The translations under genes were made by a program, and so were the position numbers. Below, piece after piece: positions 6,987-56,234 of a DNA stretch of 64,000 nt (positions are counted from its first letter, which is position 1; every line of letters begins with the position of its first letter). The notes under the pieces were generated by a model. The model was not told the origin of the DNA. It was given only the letters and a program-made list of their open reading frames with translations, and did no database searches. The stretch is from Vulcanimicrobiota bacterium (GTDB lineage: Bacteria > Vulcanimicrobiota > Xenobia > Xenobiales > JADMJV01): positions 2,214,210 through 2,278,209 of the forward strand of contig JBFWNU010000001.1 of assembly GCA_050250895.1 (NCBI GenBank). Direction: 5' to 3'.

Positions 6987-7071
6987 GCCCGGGTGGCGAA
7001 ATTGGCAGACGCGCGGGTCTCAAAAACCCGTTCCTTCGGGAGTGCCGGTTCGAGTCCGGCCCCGGGCACCA
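6987..7071 (+). tRNA. tRNA-Leu (anticodon CAA)
   Basis: Acceptor stem GCCCGGG/CCCGGGC. The anticodon stem-loop is CGGGT-cuCAAaa-ACCCG with U33 and A37, and the long variable arm marks a type II tRNA. The T-arm is GCCGG-TTCGAGT-CCGGC, with discriminator A and an encoded CCA. Confidence 0.8.
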
Positions 7072-48574: not shown

Positions 48575-49331
48575 GATCGCGAGCTGCTTCGGCCGAATTC
48601 CGGCCCAGGCGGCGATCTGTTATCGCGACCTGACCGGCAGTCAGGCGTGGGGGCAGGACCACCGTCAAGACTTTCCCGCCGCCAGCGTCATCAAAGTGGC
48701 CATTATGGTCGAGTTGCTGCAACGCGTCGAGGCCGGCCAGAGCCGGTTGACCGAACGCCTTGAAGTCGCTTCGGATCGGCTGGTGGGCGGGGCCGGTGTG
48801 CTTTTCGAGCTTGATCCCGGGCTGCGCCTGAGCCTGGGTGACCTGTGCCGGTTGATGATCGTGGTCAGCGACAACACCGCCTCCAATCTGTTGATTGACT
48901 ATTTGGGAGGGCTCGAGGTCATGACCGCCGCCATGGCCGAAATGGGCTTGTCGGCCCGGCTGGGGCGCTACTTTATGGAACCCCCGATTGGTCAACGCGA
49001 TAACCGGATGACCTGTGAAGACGCGGTCGTCCTGCTGTGGCGATTGCGTCGAGGAGAGCTACTCGGCCCTGAATTGACCACTTTCGCCCGGGGCGTGCTC
49101 GAGCGCCAGCAGTATCGCGAGAAGATTCCCCAGCGTCTCCCGGCCGAACTGGTGGTGGGCCACAAGACCGGCGAACTCGATGGGGTGCGTCACGACGCTG
49201 CTATTGTCGAGCACTCTCGGCCCTATGTTCTGGCCATCTTTACGCGCAATGGCGGCCATGCCTGGGAGGTGGACGAGCACATCGCCCTGACCTCGCGGGC
49301 GGTCTATGATTGGGTGGAACAAGATGTATAG
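48561..49331 (+). CDS. Class A beta-lactamase-like serine hydrolase
   Basis: SVIK (SxxK), SDN and KTG (HKTGE) motifs in the correct order and spacing. No obvious signal peptide. Confidence 0.55.
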   Translation: MLPSEIASCFGRIPAQAAICYRDLTGSQAWGQDHRQDFPAASVIKVAIMVELLQRVEAGQSRLTERLEVASDRLVGGAGVLFELDPGLRLSLGDLCRLMIVVSDNTASNLLIDYLGGLEVMTAAMAEMGLSARLGRYFMEPPIGQRDNRMTCEDAVVLLWRLRRGELLGPELTTFARGVLERQQYREKIPQRLPAELVVGHKTGELDGVRHDAAIVEHSRPYVLAIFTRNGGHAWEVDEHIALTSRAVYDWVEQDV

Positions 49332-50199
49332 AAGCGGCTTCGTGGCCCTGGTCGGCAAGCCCAATGTGGGGAAGTCGACTCTGATCAACCGTCTGGTGGG
49401 AACCAAGGTCGCCATCACCTCCTCCAAGCCCCAAACGACCCGGCATCGGGTGCTGGGCGTCATGCACGGTCAGGAGTATCAGATCGTGCTGGTGGACACT
49501 CCCGGACTCATGCAACCGCGCCACGCCCTCGGCCGCAAGATGGAGAAATGGGCCCTCGAAGAGAGTCGCGAGGCGGACCTGGTGTTGTTCCTGGTCGAGT
49601 TGACGCACGCCCCCACCGCCGAGGACCGCTTTGCGGCCGAGCATCTGGCCCCGCTGGGAGACCGGGTCTGGTTGGTGATGAACAAGCTCGACCGGTGCAA
49701 GGACGAACAGGTGGCCGAGCAGTACCAGGCGTTGGGCGGCTATCCGCGCAGCTTCCAGGTTTCCGCCCTCGAGGGGCAGGGGTTGGAACAGCTTACCCAG
49801 GCTTTGTGCGAGGTCTTGCCCGAAGGCGACCCCTTTTTCCCCCCCGACCAGGTGACCGACCAGAATCGGGCTCTGTTGGCCAGCGAGGTGATCCGCGAGA
49901 AGGTCCTGCATCTGACCCGCCAGGAGATTCCTCACGCCGTGGCCGTGGTGGTCGACGAGCTGCGCCCCGCCGACAAACCCGACATGCTGTATCTGAGCGC
50001 CTATCTCTATGTAGAGCGGCCCAATCAAAAACGCATCCTGATCGGAAAGAACGGCCAGTTGCTAAAGTCCATCGGCGCCGAAGCCAGACTCGAACTCGAG
50101 CAACTATGGGGGCAACGCGTCTTTCTCGAGCTATGGGTCAAAGTGAAGGAAGGCTGGCGCGACCGCGAGGACTGGCTCCGCTCCCTCGGCTATGAATAA
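49306..50199 (+). CDS. era: GTPase Era
   Basis: G1 GKPNVGKST, TTR, DTPG, NKLD and a C-terminal KH domain. Confidence 0.85.
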   Translation: MIGWNKMYRSGFVALVGKPNVGKSTLINRLVGTKVAITSSKPQTTRHRVLGVMHGQEYQIVLVDTPGLMQPRHALGRKMEKWALEESREADLVLFLVELTHAPTAEDRFAAEHLAPLGDRVWLVMNKLDRCKDEQVAEQYQALGGYPRSFQVSALEGQGLEQLTQALCEVLPEGDPFFPPDQVTDQNRALLASEVIREKVLHLTRQEIPHAVAVVVDELRPADKPDMLYLSAYLYVERPNQKRILIGKNGQLLKSIGAEARLELEQLWGQRVFLELWVKVKEGWRDREDWLRSLGYE

Positions 50200-50640
50200 G
50201 TCGGCCCAGCGGCGCGGCGCGAAGCGCCGTAGGGAATGACGAGAAGGCCGCATCCTGTGCAGTTTCAGCTAGTGGTCATACCTTCTCGTCGTTCCCGTAG
50301 AGCCGCGGCCGGGCCGACGCCCATACGAAGTCGGCCCAGCGGCGCGGCGCGAAGCGCCGTAGGGAATGACGAGAAGGCCGCATCCTGTGCAGTTTCAGCT
50401 AGTGGTCATACCTTCTCGTCGTTCCCGTAGAGCCGCGGCCGGGCCGACGCCCATACGAAGTCGGCCCAGCGGCGCGGCGCGAAGCGCCGTAGGGAATGAC
50501 GAGAAGGCCGCATCCTGTGCAGTTTCAGCTAGTGGTCATACCTTCTCGTCGTTCCCTTAGAGCCGCGGCCGGGCCGACGCCCATACGAAGTCGGCCCAGC
50601 GGCGCGGCGCGAAGCGCCGTAGAGTGGCAGCGGCCGAGCC
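50200..50640. repeat. 130-bp tandem repeat, 3.3 copies, each containing a 16-bp-stem hairpin
   Basis: Copies start at 50200, 50330, 50460 and 50590 (partial), with 1 mismatch among the full copies. Each has the inverted repeat GGGAATGACGAGAAGG...(33 nt)...CCTTCTCGTCGTTCCC and a second IR, GCCGGGCCGAC/GTCGGCCCAGC, spanning the unit junction. Confidence 0.85.
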
Positions 50641-50718
50641 AAAGGAACCCCTGATCGAGCCGTCGAACGGTCGGGCCTCGGGAGTGCCACTCCCCTAAAG
50701 ATTGAAAGGCGACAAGCA

Positions 50719-51024
50719 ATGATCACTACTTACGAAGCCCTGGGCATGATTGAAACCAAAGGCCTGGTGGCGATGATTGAAGCTGCCGATGCTATGGTCA
50801 AGGCGGCCAACGTGAAACTGATCGGTTACGAGAAAATCGGAGCCGGCTATGTGACCGCTCTGGTTCGCGGCGATGTGGCTGCCGTGCGTGCGGCTACCGA
50901 TGCCGGCGCTTCTGCCGCCCGCAAAGTGGGCGAGCTGATCGCCGTCCACGTTATTCCCCGTCCCCACAAGGATCTCGACGATGTGCTACCGATCGCCCCT
51001 CCCCGTGAGAAAGCCGGGAAGTAG
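50719..51024 (+). CDS. BMC-H hexameric microcompartment shell protein (PduA/EutM family)
   Basis: [30 protein letters not shown]...[17 protein letters not shown] is the canonical BMC domain. Confidence 0.85.
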
Positions 51025-51043
51025 TCCAGGCTCGAGCCATTAG

Positions 51044-51781
51044 ATGGACCCCGCTCTGATCGATACGATCACCGAGCTGGTCCTGCGCGAACTGCAAGGC
51101 AATCAGCCGGCGGGGCCGCCCGCCCCTCCCAAACAGGGCAAGAAGGTGCTCTTGTGCCCGGGGCCGGGCGCCGGCAGCTCGGCGATCTGGCAGGGGCTGG
51201 CTCAGCTCTCGGACATTGGCTGGCAAGCCGTGGCCTGGCCCGGCTTTGACACTCATCGCCTCGAGCGCGCGCTGGGCCGCAAGGTGCCGACTTCGGACCC
51301 TCCCACCTGCTGGGAACAGCTGGTTCAAGGGGTAGAGGCGGTCGTCTTGCCCAGCCTCGATCTGGGTGGGTTGGCCAGCCTGGCCTTGCTGCTGACCGAC
51401 CGCCCCCCGGCCGGGGCCGGCGTGGCCGGGATCGTGCTCGGCAAGCCGGTGCTGGCCCTCAACGAGGGGCTGGAGCGCTATCGACGCCACTCGGCTCGCT
51501 TGCCGGGCGGGTTTTTAGATGTCTTCGAGCGTCACTATCGAGGGGCCGAGAGTATGGGCGTCACTTTTTTAGGGGTGGGGGAGCTGGCCGGGGCTCTGGC
51601 CGGTCCGGGGGCCAAGAAGGTCACCGCCACCTCGACCGGGCGCGACGTGGTCACTCTGGAAGACCTCGAGGCGGTGCGGCGGCGTGGCCAGACGGTGCTG
51701 GAAGTGTCGGCCGGGGCCATCGTCACCCCGCTGGCCAGCCAGGCCGCGCGAGAGATGGGGATTGAGGTGAAGACTCGATGA
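51044..51781 (+). CDS. BMC-associated protein of unknown function with encapsulation-peptide-like N-terminus
   Basis: The N-terminal amphipathic helix ([18 protein letters not shown]), then a P/G linker, resembles the N-termini of the downstream AldDH and DeoC. The C-terminus ends [24 protein letters not shown]. Confidence 0.4.
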
Positions 51782-52083
51782 TCTTGGCGAAAGTCGTGGG
51801 TACAGTGGTCTGCACCCAAAAAGAGCCGCGCCTCGACGGGCTGAAGTTGCAGCTGGTCTGCCCGCTTTCGCTAGCCGATATGGCCGTCGACGGCAAGCCG
51901 CTGGTAGCCGTCGACGCCGTCGGGGCCGGACCCGGCGAGGTGGTTCTGGTGGCCGCCGGCAGTTCGGCGCGCCAGACCGAGGCGACCCTCAACACCCCGA
52001 CCGATGCCGTCATTATGGGCATCGTCGATACAGTCGAAATGGAAGGCAAGACCGTCTTCCAGAAACATCGGGCCAAGGAGTAG
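51778..52083 (+). CDS. BMC-P pentameric vertex protein (EutN/CcmL/PduN family), copy 1
   Basis: [27 protein letters not shown]...[22 protein letters not shown] is the EutN/CcmL fold signature. Confidence 0.8.
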
Positions 52084-52086
52084 GCA

Positions 52087-53523
52087 ATGGATATCGACCG
52101 CGACGTCATTCGCAAGATTGTGGAAGAGGTGGTGCGCCAACAGATCGGCTCAGGCTCGGCGCCACGCTCGGTCGAAGTTCCGGTGGCCAGTGGTCGCTAC
52201 GGAATCTTCACTTCGGCCGACGATGCGGTGGCCGCAGCCGGCGAGAGCTACAAAGCCTGGTTCTCGATGAGTCTCGAGACCAAAGCTGCCTGTGTCCAGG
52301 CGATGCGAGACGTTTCTCTGGCCCAGGCCCGTCCCATGGCCGAATTGGCTCATGCCGAGACCGGTCTCGGTAGGGTCGAGGACAAAGTCAACAAGAATCT
52401 GCTCCAGGTGGCCAAGACGCCCGGACTAGAGGATGTCAAGCCTCAGGTGTTTACCGGAGACCGCGGTCTGACCCTGGTCGAGAAGGCTCCCTTCGGGGTG
52501 ATCTGCTCGGTCACGCCCACCACCAATCCGGTGGCGACCATCATCAACAACTCGATTTCGATGGTGAGCGGCGGGAACGCGGTGGTCTTCAATCCCCACC
52601 CGCGCGCCAAAGGGTGCTGCAATCAGATGATTCAGCTGCTCAACCAGGCCATCCACAAGGCCGGGGGCCCTCCCACCCTGCTCACTTCCGTGGCCGAGCC
52701 TACCATCGAGACCTCGCAGGCCCTGATGAAGCACAAGGGAGTGCGTTGCTTGGTGGTGACCGGCGGTCCGGGCGTGGTGGCCCAGGCCATGGCCAGTGGC
52801 AAGAAAACGATCGCGGCCGGTCCCGGCAATCCGCCGGTGGTCGTCGACGAGACGGCCGACCTGCGCCAGGCTGCCCGCGATACGGTGGCCGGCTCGTCGT
52901 TCGACAACAACGTGATGTGCACGTGCGAGAAAGAAGTCTTCATCGTCGATAGCGTCTTTCGCGAGTTCAAAGAGCATATGCTCAATAACGGCTGCTACGA
53001 ACTCACTCCTCGCCAGCTCGACGAGCTCACCCGGGTCATCTTCCAACCACCGCCGGTGGGCAGCACCAAGACGGTGCTCAACCGTGACCTCATCGGTCAG
53101 CACGCCAGCGACATCGCCCGCACCATCGGGCTTGACCTGCCCCGCGACACGCGGCTTTTGATCGCCGAGACTCCCTTCGAGCATCCGCTGGTGCTCAAAG
53201 AGCAGATGATGCCGGTGCTGCCGCTGGTTCGTTGTCGTGATGTCAACGAGGCCATCGAGCGCGCCGTCCAGGCCGAGGGCGGGCGCTATCACACGGCCGT
53301 GATGCATTCGCGCAACATCGAGAACCTGTCGCGCATGGCCCGGGTGGTCAACGCCAACATCTTCATCAAGAACGGGCCCAACTACGCAGGTCTGGGCTTC
53401 GGAGGCGAAGGCTTTACCACCATGACCATCGCCGGCACCACCGGTGAAGGGGTGACCTCGGCTCGCACCTTCACTCGCGAGCGCCGCTGCGCCCTCATCG
53501 ACTATTTCAGGATTCTAGGCTAG
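52087..53523 (+). CDS. CoA-acylating aldehyde dehydrogenase (PduP/EutE family)
   Basis: FGVICSVTPTTNPVATIINNSISMVSGGNAVVFNPHP, plus the catalytic Cys region and an N-terminal encapsulation-peptide-like helix (MDIDRDVIRKIVEEVVRQQ). Confidence 0.8.
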   Translation: MDIDRDVIRKIVEEVVRQQIGSGSAPRSVEVPVASGRYGIFTSADDAVAAAGESYKAWFSMSLETKAACVQAMRDVSLAQARPMAELAHAETGLGRVEDKVNKNLLQVAKTPGLEDVKPQVFTGDRGLTLVEKAPFGVICSVTPTTNPVATIINNSISMVSGGNAVVFNPHPRAKGCCNQMIQLLNQAIHKAGGPPTLLTSVAEPTIETSQALMKHKGVRCLVVTGGPGVVAQAMASGKKTIAAGPGNPPVVVDETADLRQAARDTVAGSSFDNNVMCTCEKEVFIVDSVFREFKEHMLNNGCYELTPRQLDELTRVIFQPPPVGSTKTVLNRDLIGQHASDIARTIGLDLPRDTRLLIAETPFEHPLVLKEQMMPVLPLVRCRDVNEAIERAVQAEGGRYHTAVMHSRNIENLSRMARVVNANIFIKNGPNYAGLGFGGEGFTTMTIAGTTGEGVTSARTFTRERRCALIDYFRILG

Positions 53524-53532
53524 GAGGTCCCC

Positions 53533-53994
53533 ATGCGGGTTGTAATCGGTAGCGATCACGGAGGCTACGAGCTCAAGAACGAGCTGGCCGGGCTGATTCG
53601 AGAGCTGGGCCACGAACTGATCGATTTCGGCACCCACGGACCCGACCCGGTCGACTATCCCGATTTCGCCTTACTGGTGGGCAAGGCCGTGGCCAACGAC
53701 CCCGATCACACCCTCGGCATCGTGGTCGATGGGGCCGGCTGCGGCAGCGCCATCACCGCCAATAAAGTGCCGGGGGTGCGTGCGGCTGCCTGCTACTGCA
53801 CGGCCACGGCCAAGAACTCTCGCGAGCACAACGACGCCAATGTCTTGACCCTGGGTAGCAAGATTACCGGGTCCGAGGTGGCCAAAGATATCGTGCGCAC
53901 CTGGCTCGGCACCCCTTTTGCCGGCGGGCGCCACTCGCGCCGAGTCGAGAAAGTGCTCTTGATCGAGCGACGTTTTGCCAAGGAGGCGCCGTAG
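53533..53994 (+). CDS. rpiB: RpiB/LacA/LacB-family sugar-phosphate isomerase
   Basis: MRVVIGSDHGGYELK ... GAGCGSAITANK ... the ribose-5-phosphate isomerase B fold. Confidence 0.8.
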   Translation: MRVVIGSDHGGYELKNELAGLIRELGHELIDFGTHGPDPVDYPDFALLVGKAVANDPDHTLGIVVDGAGCGSAITANKVPGVRAAACYCTATAKNSREHNDANVLTLGSKITGSEVAKDIVRTWLGTPFAGGRHSRRVEKVLLIERRFAKEAP

Positions 53995-54261
53995 TTGTTT
54001 CTGGGTCGGGTTTGCGGGACGGTGGTGGCCACCCATCGAGTAGACAACCTCGACGGAGCGACCTTTCGTGTGGTGGTGCCTGTGAATCACGACGGCTCGC
54101 CTTACGGTAAACCCTTCGTGGCTGTCGACAACGTCTCGGCCATGACCGGCGATCTGGTCTATCTGGTCAAGGGCAAAGAGGCCATCATCCCCTGGAAGCG
54201 CTCGGATATGGCGCCCATTGATGCCGCCATCGTGGGGTTGGTGGATGGGATGGATATCTGA
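53995..54261 (+). CDS. BMC-P vertex protein, copy 2
   Basis: MFLGRVCGTVVATHRVDNLDGATFRVVVPV...VAVDNVSAMTGDLVYLVKG. Confidence 0.75.
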   Translation: MFLGRVCGTVVATHRVDNLDGATFRVVVPVNHDGSPYGKPFVAVDNVSAMTGDLVYLVKGKEAIIPWKRSDMAPIDAAIVGLVDGMDI

Positions 54262-54554
54262 TGCTCTATGCACGGATTTTAGGAAGTTTGTGGGCCACCG
54301 CTCAGGTGGCGGGCTTTGAGGGTAGATCTCTTAAGCTGATCGAGCCTGTCGATGCGCGGACCGGTAAGGGCGCGGGGGACACGCTGCTGGCGGTCGACCT
54401 GGTCGGGGCGCGCAAGGGTGACCACGTTCTGGTCGTCTACGAGGGCAGCTCGTCGCGTCTGGCCATGGGCAGTCAGACGACGCCCTGCGAGGCGATCGTG
54501 GTCGGCATCGTGGATCGGCTCGATTTGGAAAGTGAGGAATCAGGTGGACATTGA
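54261..54554 (+). CDS. BMC-P vertex protein, copy 3
   Basis: [30 protein letters not shown]...[24 protein letters not shown]. Its start overlaps the copy-2 stop by 1 nt. Confidence 0.75.
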
Positions 54555-55500
54555 AGCGATTGTAGCCAGAATCACCAGGGAAGTGGTGGAAGAACTCCAG
54601 CGCCCGCAGGCGGCCTCGTCCCCCTCTGCCGAGGTGGACCGCACCGCCCCTCCAGGACGTCTGCGCGTGGCCGAGGGCTCGTCTTCGAACGGTTCAGGCA
54701 AGGTCTGCATGGAGCGTCTCACCGGCGAGTGCGCCGGAGTTGGCTGCTGTGCTCAGTTGCTTCCCGAGCGGGTGCGGGCCGTGATCGAGTCCGGGGCCGA
54801 CCGGGTGGGCAATTCCCCCGGGGGGGTGGTGGACGGGGCCGACATCGCCGCCCGTATCGACCACACTTTGCTCAAAGCCGACGCTACCCGCCAGGAAGTC
54901 CTCGAGCTGTGCGACGAGGCCCGCACCCACCGGTTTGCCTCGGTCTGCATCAACCCGGCTTTCGTGGCCACGGCCGCCGACGCTCTGCGGGGCACCGGGG
55001 TCAAAGTTTGCACCGTCGTGGGCTTTCCGCTGGGAGCCACCACGACCCTCACGAAAGTCACCGAGACCCGAGATGCGCTCGCCAACGGGGCCGACGAGAT
55101 CGACATGGTGATCAACATCGGAGCCCTCAAGAACAACCAGGATGACCTGGTCGAATCCGATATCCGCGAGGTGGTGGCTGCCGCCGGCGGGCGCATCACC
55201 AAAACGATTTTCGAGACGGCCATCCTCTCGGACGACGAAGTGGTGAGGGCCTGCCTGTTGGCCAAGCGGGCCGGAGCAGATTTCGTCAAGACCTCGACCG
55301 GATTCGGTCCAGGCGGAGCCACTGTGCATCACGTGGCTTTGATGCGCCAGACGGTGGGACGCTCCATGGGAGTCAAAGCCTCGGGCGGGGTGCGCGATCT
55401 CGAGACGGCCCGCCAGATGATCGAGGCGGGAGCCACCCGAATCGGGGCCAGTGCTTCCGTCAAGATCGTGCGCGGTGAGCAAGGCAGCGGCAACTACTGA
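54544..55500 (+). CDS. deoC: Deoxyribose-phosphate aldolase (DeoC) with N-terminal encapsulation-peptide-like extension
   Basis: DeoC core ([11 protein letters not shown]...[10 protein letters not shown]...[14 protein letters not shown]...KTSTGF). A GTG start at 54544 is preceded by AGGAAT and begins [19 protein letters not shown]. The 5' part of the track ORF is out-of-frame overlap with BMC-P copy 3. Confidence 0.75.
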
Positions 55501-55526
55501 GCAAGTTCTTCAAGACCGAGGCGCTG

Positions 55527-56234
55527 GTGCTCGAGCGTCGACCACTGGGAGAGTCCGACGAGATCGTGGCTCTGCTCTCGCCTGTGCGAGGACGCTTTGA
55601 TGCGGTGGCGCGAGGCTCTCGCAAGGCCTCCAGCCCCTGGGTAGCCAGGGTCGAGCCGTTCACTTTGCTCAGCGGCCAGTTCGCGGCCGGTCGCAAGGAC
55701 CTGGACTATTTCAATCAGGCGCGGGTGGTCAAAGCTTTTGGGGGCCTGCGCCAGTCGCTTGACAAGATGGTCTATGGTAGCTATGTGCTCAAGTTGGTGC
55801 GAGACGGCCTCGAGCAAGGCGAATCCATCCCCGAGTTCTTTCGCCTCTTGCTAGACTGGCTATCTCAGCTGGAGGAGCAAGAGCCGGGACCAAGCCTGGT
55901 TCGCTGGTTCGAATTGCGATTGGCCCGTCAGCTGGGGGTCGAGCCCCAACTAGATCGGTGCACTGGCTGCGGAAATGCCGACGTGGTGGGCTTCTCGCCG
56001 GTGGCCGGCGGGGTGGTCTGTGGCCAGTGCCGGGATCGGACCAGCCTGCGGTTAGCTCCGGGCGGGCTGGCGGCCCTGCGCTATCTTGGTCGCAGCCGTC
56101 TCGAGGCGACCACGCGGCTCCGGCTATCGCCAGCCGACGCCGGTGACCTGGAGGCCGCCCTGACCGCTCATCTTAGCGAGCACTGGCCCAGCGGGCGCCG
56201 ATTTCCACAAATTTCCAAGGAGTTGCTGTCGTGA
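55527..56234 (+). CDS. recO: DNA repair protein RecO (start codon uncertain)
   Basis: RecO N-terminal OB-fold and zinc-binding CTGCG...CGQC motif. The conserved N-terminal residues (KTEALVLERR) lie upstream of the first GTG, so the real start may be non-canonical or further upstream. Confidence 0.65.
   Translation: MLERRPLGESDEIVALLSPVRGRFDAVARGSRKASSPWVARVEPFTLLSGQFAAGRKDLDYFNQARVVKAFGGLRQSLDKMVYGSYVLKLVRDGLEQGESIPEFFRLLLDWLSQLEEQEPGPSLVRWFELRLARQLGVEPQLDRCTGCGNADVVGFSPVAGGVVCGQCRDRTSLRLAPGGLAALRYLGRSRLEATTRLRLSPADAGDLEAALTAHLSEHWPSGRRFPQISKELLS

What the first reader, a model, noticed from the sequence alone, without database searches (positions are those of the whole stretch)
50200..50640. 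Near-perfect 130-bp x3.3 tandem repeat with a 16-bp-stem hairpin, between era and the first shell gene
Three complete copies differ by a single substitution (G to T at about 50555), and a fourth is truncated after 33 bp. This implies very recent expansion or active homogenisation. Each unit contains GGGAATGACGAGAAGG-(33 nt)-CCTTCTCGTCGTTCCC, a long imperfect hairpin, and a second inverted pair bridging unit junctions. The array is in the leader region upstream of the BMC-H gene, so it could be a structured regulatory RNA (riboswitch- or attenuator-like), a protein-binding array, or a repetitive element that mediated the insertion. The two identical 64-aa ORFs in the six-frame track (50236, 50366) are by-products of the repeat.
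Basis: seen in the sequence. Interest (0 to 1): 0.6.

Follow-up and report, generated by a model that had tools for sequence, protein, structure and literature searches.

The report
Lineage-specific hairpin minisatellite after era
A real 130-bp, roughly three-copy, hairpin-rich tandem repeat sits just after the era gene in one uncultured Vulcanimicrobiota lineage, but close relatives with the same downstream operon lack it and it matches nothing known, so it looks like a young minisatellite and not a conserved regulator.

Summary
Window 50198-50622 holds 3.3 head-to-tail copies of a 130-bp unit with one substitution (G>T at 50557). Each unit folds into an outer stem, a GAA-loop mini-hairpin and a long hairpin with 16-bp arms (-73 kcal/mol, z = -6.7).

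The regulatory interpretation is not supported.
- The array starts at the first base after the era stop codon. It lies upstream of an approximately 80-nt leader that is conserved in every relative.
- About 20 related loci keep era followed by BMC-H with spacers of only 63-151 nt. Some of them have an identical BMC-H protein. None has an array.
- Only the window strain and one lineage about 94% identical in DNA (DRR438474) carry the unit.
- The unit has no Rfam match and no promoter or terminator consensus. There is no other copy in the 64-kb window.
- It has no match in GTDB representative genomes, JGI metagenomes, IMG/VR, PLSDB, INPHARED or 5.8 billion protein clusters (six-frame query).
- No mobile-element gene was found in the flanks examined.
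- The "truncated" fourth copy is a degenerate edge copy that lacks the long hairpin. About 20 nt of each unit is homologous to the ancestral spacer.

Best reading: a locally born minisatellite (VNTR-type array), homogenised by unequal recombination or slippage. At most it acts as a stack of stem-loops between era and the BMC operon. Interest is low to moderate.

The parts
49324..50199 (+). era (GTPase Era). Its TAA stop codon (50197-50199) directly abuts the first unit.
   Evidence: Pfam MMR_HSR1 5.6e-27 and KH_2 1.6e-14. The 291-aa product is on record as NCBI MGE0491826.1, 'GTPase Era [Vulcanimicrobiota bacterium]'.
50198..50622 (+). Tandem array: three full 130-bp units (50198-50327, 50328-50457, 50458-50587) plus the first 35 nt of a fourth.
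   Evidence: TRF period 130, 3.3 copies, 99% matches. The repeat finder family D1. Sequence read directly.
50200..50318 (+). Unit 1 outer stem P1: 5' arm 50200-50214 and 3' arm 50304-50318. The same arms recur at +130 and +260. The 3' arm can instead pair with the next unit's 5' arm across an 11-nt linker.
   Evidence: Inverted repeats I10, I13, I15 (within a unit) and I16, I19, I21 (bridging). Minimum-free-energy folds.
50214..50230 (+). P2 mini-hairpin GCGGCGC-GAA-GCGCCGT. It recurs at 50344-50360, 50474-50490 and 50604-50620, and is followed by GTAG.
   Evidence: Fold of the unit. The G-U closing pair is standard only on the + strand RNA.
50232..50296 (+). P3 long hairpin: 16-bp arms with one G-U pair, extended by 4 further pairs, with an AT-richer apical loop. 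It recurs at 50362-50426 and 50492-50556. It is flanked on both sides by the direct repeat CCGTAG.
   Evidence: I4, I6, I3.: -35.8 kcal/mol, z = -7.1. Flanking repeat read.
50557..50557 (+). The only substitution among the full copies (G in units 1 and 2, T in unit 3). It lies in an unpaired joining segment.
   Evidence: families D2, D3.
50588..50640 (+). Degenerate edge copy: P1 5' arm, P2 and GTAG, then directly a diverged P1 3' block (GGCAGCGGCCGAGCC). P3 is absent.
   Evidence: Alignment A3. The DRR438474 lineage has a different P3-less edge copy, GTAGGGAAGGCTGCGGCCGGGCC.
50640..50718 (+). Conserved BMC-H leader, not part of the repeat: AGGAACC (50643-50649), CGTCGAACG (50661-50669), small hairpin GGGAGTGCCACTCCC, and the ribosome-binding region GAAAGGCG (50704-50711).
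   Evidence: Alignments A1, A2 and A4. The motifs are kept in relatives down to about 57-67% Era identity.
50719..55500 (+). Microcompartment locus downstream: BMC-H, a 245-aa ORF with no Pfam hit, EutN, aldehyde dehydrogenase, RpiB, EutN, EutN, DeoC. recO follows at 55527-56234.
   Evidence: Pfam. Gene calls on the identical contig L001.

Best explanation
The array is a lineage-restricted minisatellite (a VNTR-type tandem duplication) that arose in place within the short spacer between era and the microcompartment operon of an uncultured Vulcanimicrobiota bacterium.

Shown:
- Each 130-bp unit contains about 20 nt homologous to the ancestral spacer (GCCGCGGCCGGGCCGACGCCC). The other roughly 110 nt, of unknown origin, supply the 5' arm of the outer stem (the 3' arm lies in the ancestral block), a GAA-loop mini-hairpin and a long hairpin.
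- Interior copies are almost identical, while the 3' edge copy is diverged and has lost the long hairpin.
- The unit is present in two lineages about 6% apart and is absent from all more distant relatives. Those relatives keep the same gene order and the same conserved BMC-H leader.

Inferred:
- Copies are generated and kept alike by unequal recombination or replication slippage between 130-bp units. This process homogenises the interior of an array and leaves the edges to decay.
- The long palindrome is lost recurrently by slippage between short flanking direct repeats (CCGTAG in the window strain, GCCGC in DRR438474).
- The array is transcribed, if at all, as the 3' untranslated tail of era. 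There, three very stable multi-stem modules starting at the base after the stop codon would act as a generic barrier. They could block 3' exonucleases, pause or terminate read-through into the BMC operon, and possibly hinder the terminating ribosome. This would resemble REP elements lying within 15 nt of a stop codon.
- The array is not required for regulating the BMC operon and is probably neutral or mildly modulatory.
For: - Array and structure.
- Absent from syntenic relatives. L003-L010 are 82-92% identical in flanking DNA, have an identical BMC-H protein, and have a 112-nt spacer wherever the spacer is present on the contig. L106-L112 are about 72% identical with a 151-nt spacer. L124, L125 and L126 have spacers of 63, 81 and 65 nt.
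- Present in the same strain in independent short-read data. L001 and L011 are 100% identical to the window, and each contig stops exactly where its last or first 30 nt become shared with the unit.
- Present in a second lineage. L113 and L002, both from DRR438474, have 93.9% DNA identity and 97% Era identity. They show the same 5' junction and a different 3' edge copy.
- Homology of the unit's 3' block to the ancestral spacer directly after the stop codon: 19/20 identical to L005, reached by 3 of 500 shuffles. Blast gives 21/22, E = 0.001. See also alignment A3.
- No other copy anywhere. Rest of window. GTDB representative genomes gave 93 single hits in unrelated taxa, and none of those checked extends beyond 14-18 nt. 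JGI metagenomes gave 0 hits for the hairpin arms; the P2 21-mer gave 9 hits in what look like about 3 unrelated contexts, none extending. IMG/VR. PLSDB and INPHARED. A six-frame pseudo-protein against 5.8 billion protein clusters.
- No Rfam family. No promoter-like or terminator-like site in the array.
- Neighbours are housekeeping genes, with no transposase, reverse transcriptase or integrase domain among the genes examined across about 39.3-63.6 kb of the window, roughly 10 kb upstream and 13 kb downstream. Two ORFs there have no Pfam hit.
- A second, unrelated hairpin-rich tandem array at 33295-33983 shows that this genome tolerates such arrays.
Against: - No copy-number comparison between strains was possible, because short-read contigs break in the array. 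The VNTR behaviour is therefore inferred and not observed.
- The origin of the roughly 110 nt of non-ancestral sequence is unexplained. A purely local duplication does not account for it.
- Only 64 kb of a roughly 3.95-Mb genome could be searched, so dispersed copies elsewhere are not excluded.
- Two G-U pairs that are standard only on the + strand RNA, and persistence across about 6% lineage divergence, are mild hints of selection on an RNA.
- No expression data are available, so the barrier role is an analogy and was not tested.
Confidence: 0.55

Rival explanations
1. The unit, or its long hairpin P3, is a small non-autonomous mobile element (MITE-, REP- or REPIN-like). It inserted at the era stop codon and was then reiterated in tandem with flanking DNA, as described for clustered GTAG-tagged REPs.
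For: - The unit has terminal inverted arms (15 nt, 87% complementary).
- Both hairpins are preceded by GTAG, the tag of the largest REP superfamily. [quoted passage not shown]
- P3 is flanked by a 6-bp direct repeat, CCGTAG. The window's edge copy reads like an empty site, CCGTAG|AG.
- About 110 nt of the unit has no counterpart in the ancestral spacer.
Against: - There is no second copy in the other 63.5 kb of the window by pattern search, blastn-short or nhmmer.
- GTAG-tagged hairpins are not enriched in the window relative to 40 control tetranucleotides (0.045 per tag, mid-range).
- Nothing was found in GTDB representatives, JGI metagenomes, IMG/VR, plasmids, phages or the protein universe.
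- No transposase domain was found among the genes examined across about 39.3-63.6 kb of the window.
- P3 (16-20 bp stem, apical region over 20 nt) lies outside the REP ranges of 5-13 bp stems and 2-20 nt loops.
- The DRR438474 edge copy keeps part of the P3 5' arm (GGGAAGGC). This fits deletion of P3 better than a never-filled site.
Confidence: 0.17
2. Each unit is a functional structured RNA. It could be a tandemly duplicated small-RNA gene or a cis-acting module in the era 3' UTR or BMC 5' UTR, and it would regulate era or the microcompartment operon.
For: - The predicted structure is very stable and well defined: z = -6.7, with the minimum-free-energy structure taking 39% of the ensemble.
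- The + strand folds slightly better than the - strand (-73.3 vs -69.3 kcal/mol). Two non-Watson-Crick positions are G-U only on the + strand, which is the sense strand of both flanking genes.
- The unit persists in two lineages about 6% apart.
Against: - It is absent from all other relatives that keep the operon, its leader and an identical BMC-H.
- There is no Rfam match at E <= 10.
- No unit has a promoter-like or terminator-like site.
- No covariation evidence exists, because the copies are identical.
- The array lies upstream of the conserved leader, not inside it.
- The outer stem has a competing register across unit junctions.
Confidence: 0.1
3. The copy number is an assembly artefact. 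The strain carries one full unit plus the partial copy, and the assembler or polisher inflated it to 3.3.
For: - The short-read contigs would break in the same way with 1.3 copies, so they do not verify the count.
- The single G>T difference could be a consensus error.
Against: - The source contig is 3.95 Mb, which implies long reads that span 425 bp easily (inference).
- Two NCBI assemblies carry the flanking proteins.
- The repeat itself (a stretch of at least 31 nt present at least twice, with two different continuations) is independently supported in three sequencing runs.
Confidence: 0.07
4. The array is a DNA-level protein-binding or cruciform-forming site, for example nucleoid-protein or regulator operators repeated at 130-bp spacing upstream of the BMC promoter.
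For: - It has regularly spaced inverted repeats just upstream of a conserved candidate promoter or operator motif.
Against: - The half-sites are 33 bp apart, which is unlike typical operators.
- The array is absent from relatives that share the conserved motif and operon.
- No regulator gene is adjacent.
Confidence: 0.03

Closest known systems
Bacterial intergenic minisatellites (VNTRs), e.g. mycobacterial interspersed repetitive units (MIRU-VNTR)
   Same: Head-to-tail copies of a unit tens to about 100 bp long. They lie in a short spacer between co-oriented genes and abut a stop codon. They are present in some lineages and absent in close relatives. Interior copies are nearly identical.
   Different: MIRUs are a dispersed family found at many loci. 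They carry a short ORF that is translationally coupled to the flanking genes (PMC12548453). This unit is 130 bp, which is not a multiple of 3, has stop codons in every frame, is dominated by long hairpins, and is known from one locus only.
GTAG-tagged REP elements, BIME and REPIN clusters
   Same: Extragenic palindromes preceded by an unpaired GTAG. They are often found right after stop codons and can be reiterated in tandem together with flanking DNA (PMC3733652). G-T pairs suggest an RNA-level role. REPs within 15 nt of a stop codon can reduce translation of the upstream gene (as summarised in PMC12306157).
   Different: REPs are 20-40 bp, with 5-13 bp stems and 2-20 nt loops. They occur tens to thousands of times per genome and are tied to a RAYT transposase. 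Here the hairpins are much longer. No second copy and no GTAG-hairpin enrichment was found in 64 kb. No RAYT could be looked for in the rest of the genome.
MITEs (e.g. Correia, ERIC, RUP, BOX)
   Same: About 100-150 bp, non-coding, with terminal inverted repeats. They fold into a long stem-loop when transcribed and are inserted next to genes.
   Different: MITEs are dispersed in many copies with target-site duplications and are rarely in perfect tandem. This unit has neither dispersed copies (as far as could be searched) nor a clear target-site duplication.
Tandem intrinsic terminators and 3'-UTR stabiliser stem-loops
   Same: Stable GC-rich stem-loops immediately downstream of a stop codon, between two co-oriented transcription units.
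   Different: No U-tract follows any stem. The modules are far larger than terminators, and array-less relatives manage without them.
Tandem riboswitches, attenuators and tandem sRNA genes
   Same: Repeated structured RNA modules upstream of an operon.
   Different: Those are conserved across species and diverge between copies while keeping structure. These copies are identical, lineage-restricted, have no Rfam match and lie upstream of the conserved leader.

Membership tests
VNTR / minisatellite | Head-to-tail copies of one unit with no unique spacers | tested here: met
   TRF period 130, 3.3 copies, 0% indels. Start-to-start spacing is exactly 130.
VNTR / minisatellite | Presence or copy number differs between related strains at the same locus | tested here: inconclusive
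   Presence versus absence is shown. Two lineages carry the unit, and about 20 syntenic relatives lack it. Copy-number variation could not be measured, because short-read contigs break inside the array.
VNTR / minisatellite | Interior copies homogenised, edge copies diverged | tested here: met
   Units 1-3 differ at 1 of 390 positions. The 3' edge copy lacks P3 and differs in its 3' block. The edge copy of DRR438474 is a different derivative.
MIRU-type repeats | Unit carries an ORF in phase with, and coupled to, the flanking genes | tested here: not met
   130 is not a multiple of 3, and stop codons occur in all frames. The 64-aa ORFs shift frame from unit to unit.
REP / BIME / REPIN | Short palindrome (stem 5-13 bp, loop 2-20 nt) with an unpaired GTAG (or CGTC) tag at one end | tested here: inconclusive
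   GTAG precedes P3 (0 nt away) and the junction hairpin (2 nt away). However, P3 has a 16-20 bp stem and a 33-nt gap between its arms. The junction hairpin has 15-bp arms with 2 mismatches. Ranges are taken from PMC3733652.
REP / BIME / REPIN | Dispersed family of tens to thousands of copies per genome | tested here: not met
   No further copy in the 64-kb window. GTAG-tagged hairpins are not enriched. There are no hits in the public collections. The remaining roughly 3.9 Mb of the genome could not be searched.
REP / BIME / REPIN | Cognate RAYT (Y1 transposase) gene in the genome | not testable with these tools
   No transposase domain was found among the genes examined across about 39.3-63.6 kb of the window.
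MITE | Terminal inverted repeats plus target-site duplication, with multiple dispersed copies | tested here: not met
   Inverted arms are present. Only trivial direct repeats (AG) flank the unit, there are no dispersed copies, and the copies lie in perfect tandem.
Riboswitch / attenuator leader | Conserved sequence and structure upstream of orthologous operons | tested here: not met
   Orthologous operons with the conserved leader lack the array.
Riboswitch / attenuator leader | Match to a described RNA family | tested here: not met
   Rfam 15 at gathering thresholds finds only a tRNA at 6987. In E-value mode over 50100-50800, the best hits are 21-23 bits against cut-offs of 59-137.
Intrinsic terminator | GC-rich hairpin followed by a U-tract | tested here: not met
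   No terminator-like site lies within 50198-50718.
Tandem sRNA genes | Each copy has its own promoter and terminator | tested here: not met
   No sigma-70-like promoter or terminator consensus lies in the array. Promoter types of this phylum are unknown, so this is a weak test.
CRISPR array | Short repeats separated by unique spacers | tested here: not met
   The whole 130-bp period is repeated and there are no unique spacers.

The most novel reading that the evidence does not exclude
The 130-nt module is a previously undescribed structured element specific to a Vulcanimicrobiota lineage. It would be either a new hairpin-type mobile element with GTAG-tagged stems that targets the base after a stop codon and amplifies in tandem, or a new non-coding RNA. 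Its copy number would tune how much transcription or translation passes from the essential GTPase gene era into a sugar-phosphate-type microcompartment operon.
Probability: 0.15. Interest if true: 0.5.

Novelty: new member of a known kind. Interest (0 to 1): 0.25.

Why it matters
If the main reading holds, the finding has limited reach. It is one more example of a hairpin-rich minisatellite in a bacterial spacer, here in a poorly studied, uncultured phylum.

It is useful in three ways:
- It is a strain marker.
- It warns that short-read assemblies of this lineage will always break between era and the microcompartment locus.
- It is a natural case for studying concerted evolution and palindrome loss in a small array.

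It should not be used as evidence for a riboswitch or leader control of this microcompartment operon. The conserved motif downstream of the array (50643-50669) is the better candidate for that control.

The finding would matter more only if the unit proves to be mobile or transcribed as a discrete RNA.

Tried and rejected
- Known RNA families. Rfam gathering on the whole window and E <= 10 on 50100-50800 gave nothing usable. ARAGORN found only tRNA-Leu at 6987.
- Coding potential. The 64-aa ORF is not on record. A concatenated six-frame pseudo-protein of the unit found nothing at E <= 1e-3 among 5.8 billion clusters.
- Dispersed copies in the window. Pattern search with 3 mismatches, blastn-short and nhmmer on the masked window found none.
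- GTDB genomes, with the 10+10-nt hairpin arms. This gave 93 single hits in unrelated taxa, and none of those checked extends beyond 14-18 nt, so they are chance.
- JGI metagenomes. The 12+12-nt arms gave 0 hits.
- JGI metagenomes, P2+GTAG 21-mer. It gave 9 hits in what look like about 3 unrelated contexts. The match does not extend and no Rfam family lies there, so these are chance.
- IMG/VR, PLSDB and INPHARED gave nothing. The one IMG/VR arm hit was a single isolated match, presumed chance and not checked further.
- REP hypothesis. GTAG-tagged perfect hairpins are no more frequent than for 40 random tetranucleotide tags. The first version of that script timed out.
- Longer homology between the unit and the ancestral spacer. 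By eye, blocks resembling the leader (CGAA..GTCGG) and the ribosome-binding region (GAAWGRCGASAAG) seemed collinear. Local alignment with shuffles supports only the 20-nt block, so the larger claim was dropped.
- Possible anti-ribosome-binding-site pairing of the P3 3' arm. This was seen by eye only, is expected by chance at this length, and the arm is locked in a 16-bp stem, so it was dropped.
- L123 (Era 64% identical). This 38-kb contig ends 26 nt after the era stop at a P2-like hairpin. Whether another repeat lies there could not be resolved.
- ECF-type promoter reading of the conserved leader motif. The 11-12 nt spacing does not fit the usual 16-17 nt (own knowledge), so this is left open.
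Full report
**1. What is there**

Tandem Repeats Finder reports one array at 50198-50622: period 130, 3.3 copies, 99% matches, no indels, score 843. The three full copies are in exact 130-nt register. They differ only at 50557, which is G in units 1 and 2 and T in unit 3.

Each unit contains the 16-nt inverted pair GGGAATGACGAGAAGG / CCTTCTCGTCGTTCCC, 33 nt apart. It also contains a 15-nt pair GTCGGCCCAGCGGCG / CGCGGCCGGGCCGAC. That pair can close within a unit or bridge two units across an 11-nt linker.

As RNA, the + strand of one unit folds to -73.3 kcal/mol (z = -6.7; 0 of 200 shuffles as good). The fold has three parts:
- an outer stem (P1);
- a GCGGCGC-GAA-GCGCCGU mini-hairpin (P2);
- a long hairpin (P3).

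The - strand gives -69.3 kcal/mol. P3 alone gives -35.8, z = -7.1. The whole spacer gives -298.5, z = -10.1, with P3 constant and P1 switching register.

**2. Context**

Pfam confirms Era at 49324-50199 and a BMC-domain shell protein at 50719-51024. The following genes are a 245-aa ORF without a Pfam hit, EutN, aldehyde dehydrogenase, RpiB, two EutN and DeoC. After those come recO, ruvX, yceG, a uridine-kinase-family (PRK) gene and type IV pilus ATPases.

Upstream lie beta-lactamase-family, PilZ, DUF6941 and peptidase genes. No transposase, integrase or reverse-transcriptase domain was found among the genes examined across about 39.3-63.6 kb of the window.

The first unit begins at the base after the era stop codon.

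Exact protein look-ups identify the source as a MAG labelled Vulcanimicrobiota bacterium. Its longest contig is 3,947,236 bp, and two NCBI accessions exist per protein.

**3. Relatives**

The exact BMC-H protein is encoded on many public contigs. They fall into groups.

- **Same strain.** L001 (SRR27751816) and L011 (SRR27751815) are 100% identical to the window.
  - L011 ends 28 nt after the era stop. L001 begins 126 nt before the BMC-H start.
  - In both, the terminal 30 nt are exactly the part shared with the unit, and the next base is the first that distinguishes the border from a full unit.
  - This is the break expected in a k = 31 assembly graph when at least 31 nt are repeated. That Logan uses k = 31 is my own knowledge.
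  - These contigs verify both borders independently, but they do not verify the copy number.
- **Second lineage.** L113 and L002 (both DRR438474) are 93.9% identical in DNA, and their Era is 97% identical.
  - L113 shows the same 5' junction (TAA then GTCGGCCC...) and stops inside the unit.
  - L002 starts inside the unit and shows a different 3' junction (GCCGTAGGGAAGGCTGCGGCCGGGCC then AAAGG).
- **No array.** All of the following lack it:
  - L003-L010, with 82-92% DNA identity, an identical BMC-H protein and a 112-nt spacer wherever the spacer is present on the contig;
  - L106-L112 from JGI metagenomes, at about 72% identity with a 151-nt spacer;
  - L124, L125 and L126, with Era 67-69% identical and spacers of 63, 81 and 65 nt.

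The window's spacer is 519 nt.

All relatives share a leader containing AGGAACC, then 11-12 nt, then CGTCGAACG, and later GAAAGGCG before the start codon (alignment A4). In the window this leader is intact and lies downstream of the array (50640-50718).

**4. Anatomy of the array against the ancestral spacer**

In array-less relatives the stop codon is followed by G-CCGCGGCCGGCCCGACGCCC (L005). This is 19/20 identical to the 3' end of the unit, a score reached by 3 of 500 shuffles. Blast gives 21/22.

Alignment A3 shows the block GCNGCGGCCGNNCC in four places: the unit, both edge copies and both array-less spacers. Each unit is therefore about 20 nt of ancestral spacer plus about 110 nt of unknown origin. 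That new sequence carries the P1 5' arm, P2, GTAG, P3 and a second GTAG.

The so-called truncated fourth copy continues to about 50640 as P1 5' arm, P2, GTAG, AGTG, GGCAGCGGCCGAGCC. It is a diverged unit without P3.

P3 is flanked by the direct repeat CCGTAG, and the window's edge copy reads as the product of a deletion between those repeats. The DRR438474 edge copy keeps GGGAAGGC from the P3 5' arm. It can be derived from a full unit by two deletions between short direct repeats (GAA...GAA and GCCGC...GCCGC) plus one substitution. I read this, so it is inference.

Nearly identical interior copies with independently decayed edge copies are what unequal exchange within an array produces (established population-genetic behaviour of tandem arrays; own knowledge).

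**5. Is the unit anywhere else?**

| Collection searched | Query | Result |
|---|---|---|
| Rest of the window | patterns with 3 mismatches, blastn-short, nhmmer | no copy |
| GTDB species-representative genomes | 10+10-nt P3 arms with variable gap | 93 single hits in unrelated taxa; none of those checked extends beyond 14-18 nt (chance) |
| JGI metagenomes | 12+12-nt arms | 0 hits |
| JGI metagenomes | P2-GTAG 21-mer | 9 hits in what look like about 3 unrelated contexts; none extends, none matches Rfam |
| IMG/VR | arms; P2 | one isolated arm hit, presumed chance; P2 none |
| PLSDB, INPHARED | whole unit, distant blastn | no match |
| 5.8 billion protein clusters | concatenated translation of all six frames | nothing at E <= 1e-3 |

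Within what could be searched, the unit is an orphan confined to this locus. The remaining roughly 3.9 Mb of the source genome could not be searched. That is the main gap.

**6. Known families**

- **Rfam.** No match at gathering thresholds. At E <= 10 there are only sub-threshold noise hits of 21-23 bits against cut-offs of 59-137.
- **Promoters and terminators.** No sigma-70-like promoter or hairpin-plus-U terminator lies within the array.
- **REP lead.** Both hairpins are preceded by GTAG. [quoted passage not shown] Tested here:
  - GTAG followed by a perfect hairpin is no more frequent in the window than for 40 control tags.
  - The stems and loops exceed the REP ranges given in that paper.
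  - No second copy exists in 64 kb.

  Membership is therefore not supported, although a RAYT gene elsewhere in the genome cannot be excluded.
- **MIRU-type repeats.** These share the position between co-oriented genes, but they carry a coupled ORF (PMC12548453). The present unit cannot, because it is 130 nt long with stops in every frame.

**7. How it most likely works**

Shown: position, structure, distribution, partial homology to the ancestral spacer, and lack of relatives.

Inferred: the array arose locally and is maintained and homogenised by unequal recombination or slippage. The long palindrome is recurrently lost at the edge.

The array lies between the era stop codon and the conserved leader, and relatives do without it. 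It is therefore unlikely to be a dedicated regulator of the microcompartment operon.

If transcribed with era, three modules of about -73 kcal/mol each would form a physical barrier. It could act against 3' exonucleases, against read-through and, because the first stem starts at the base after the stop codon, possibly against the terminating ribosome. REPs within 15 nt of a stop codon are reported to reduce translation (summarised in PMC12306157). This functional part is an analogy and carries low confidence.

**8. Rivals**

- A mobile hairpin element (0.17) is kept alive by the unexplained 110 nt, the GTAG tags and the CCGTAG flanks.
- A functional RNA (0.10) is kept alive by the + strand G-U pairs and by persistence across about 6% divergence.
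- Inflated copy number (0.07) cannot be excluded with short-read data.
- A protein-binding DNA array (0.03) has no positive evidence.

**9. Verdict**

This is a real, striking repeat, but an ordinary kind of object: a young, lineage-restricted, hairpin-rich minisatellite. The riboswitch or attenuator reading and the "mediated the insertion" reading are not supported. Interest is 0.25.

Noticed in passing
window 33295-33983: A second, unrelated hairpin-rich tandem array. It has 27-nt sub-repeats (GGGAGCCCTGCGCTTCGCTTGGGAGAG) nested in a 187-nt x3 higher-order repeat (93% matches, score 966) and includes GTAGGCGGCCTTCGGCCGC hairpins. It lies between two minus-strand genes.
   Followed up: partly
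window 30785-33217 (-): An 809-aa protein with a major-vault-protein shoulder domain (PF11978, 1.7e-26) and a weak Vault_3 repeat hit. This is a bacterial MVP-like gene, next to the second tandem array.
   Followed up: no
window 50640-50718; L003, L005, L106, L124, L125, L126 spacers: The BMC-H leader is conserved in relatives down to about 57-67% Era identity. It contains AGGAACC (50643-50649), then 11-12 nt, then CGTCGAACG (50661-50669), and GAAAGGCG (50704-50711) before the start codon. It is a candidate promoter, operator or leader RNA of the microcompartment operon and has no Rfam match.
   Followed up: partly
window 49324-56234: The eight-gene microcompartment locus (BMC-H to DeoC) sits between era and recO, which are adjacent in many bacteria (own knowledge: rnc-era-recO in E. 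coli). The era to BMC-H arrangement is shared by all relatives examined, so it is old.
   Followed up: partly
window 51044-51781 (+): A 245-aa ORF directly after BMC-H has no Pfam hit. It is syntenic and of similar length (237-256 aa) in most relatives, though some gene calls give a shorter 146-aa product, so it may be an uncharacterised microcompartment component.
   Followed up: no
window 54352/54544-55500 (+): The DeoC-family aldolase domain starts about 100 residues into the protein, even from the start used by the public gene call (about 54544). This leaves an N-terminal extension that could be an encapsulation segment.
   Followed up: no
L123 3377-3405 (DRR378781, Era 64% identical): A 38-kb Logan contig stops 26 nt after the era stop codon at ...CCCCGGCGCGTAGCGCTC. 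That sequence is a hairpin like P2 but with a GTA loop. Another repeat may follow era in this more distant relative.
   Followed up: partly
L114-L119, L121 (JGI metagenome contigs): A block of over 150 nt that looks non-coding surrounds the same 21-mer, GCGGCGCGAAGCGCCGTAGAG. It is conserved across several contigs from unrelated high-GC organisms and has no Rfam hit. Similarity to the unit does not extend beyond the 21-mer.
   Followed up: partly
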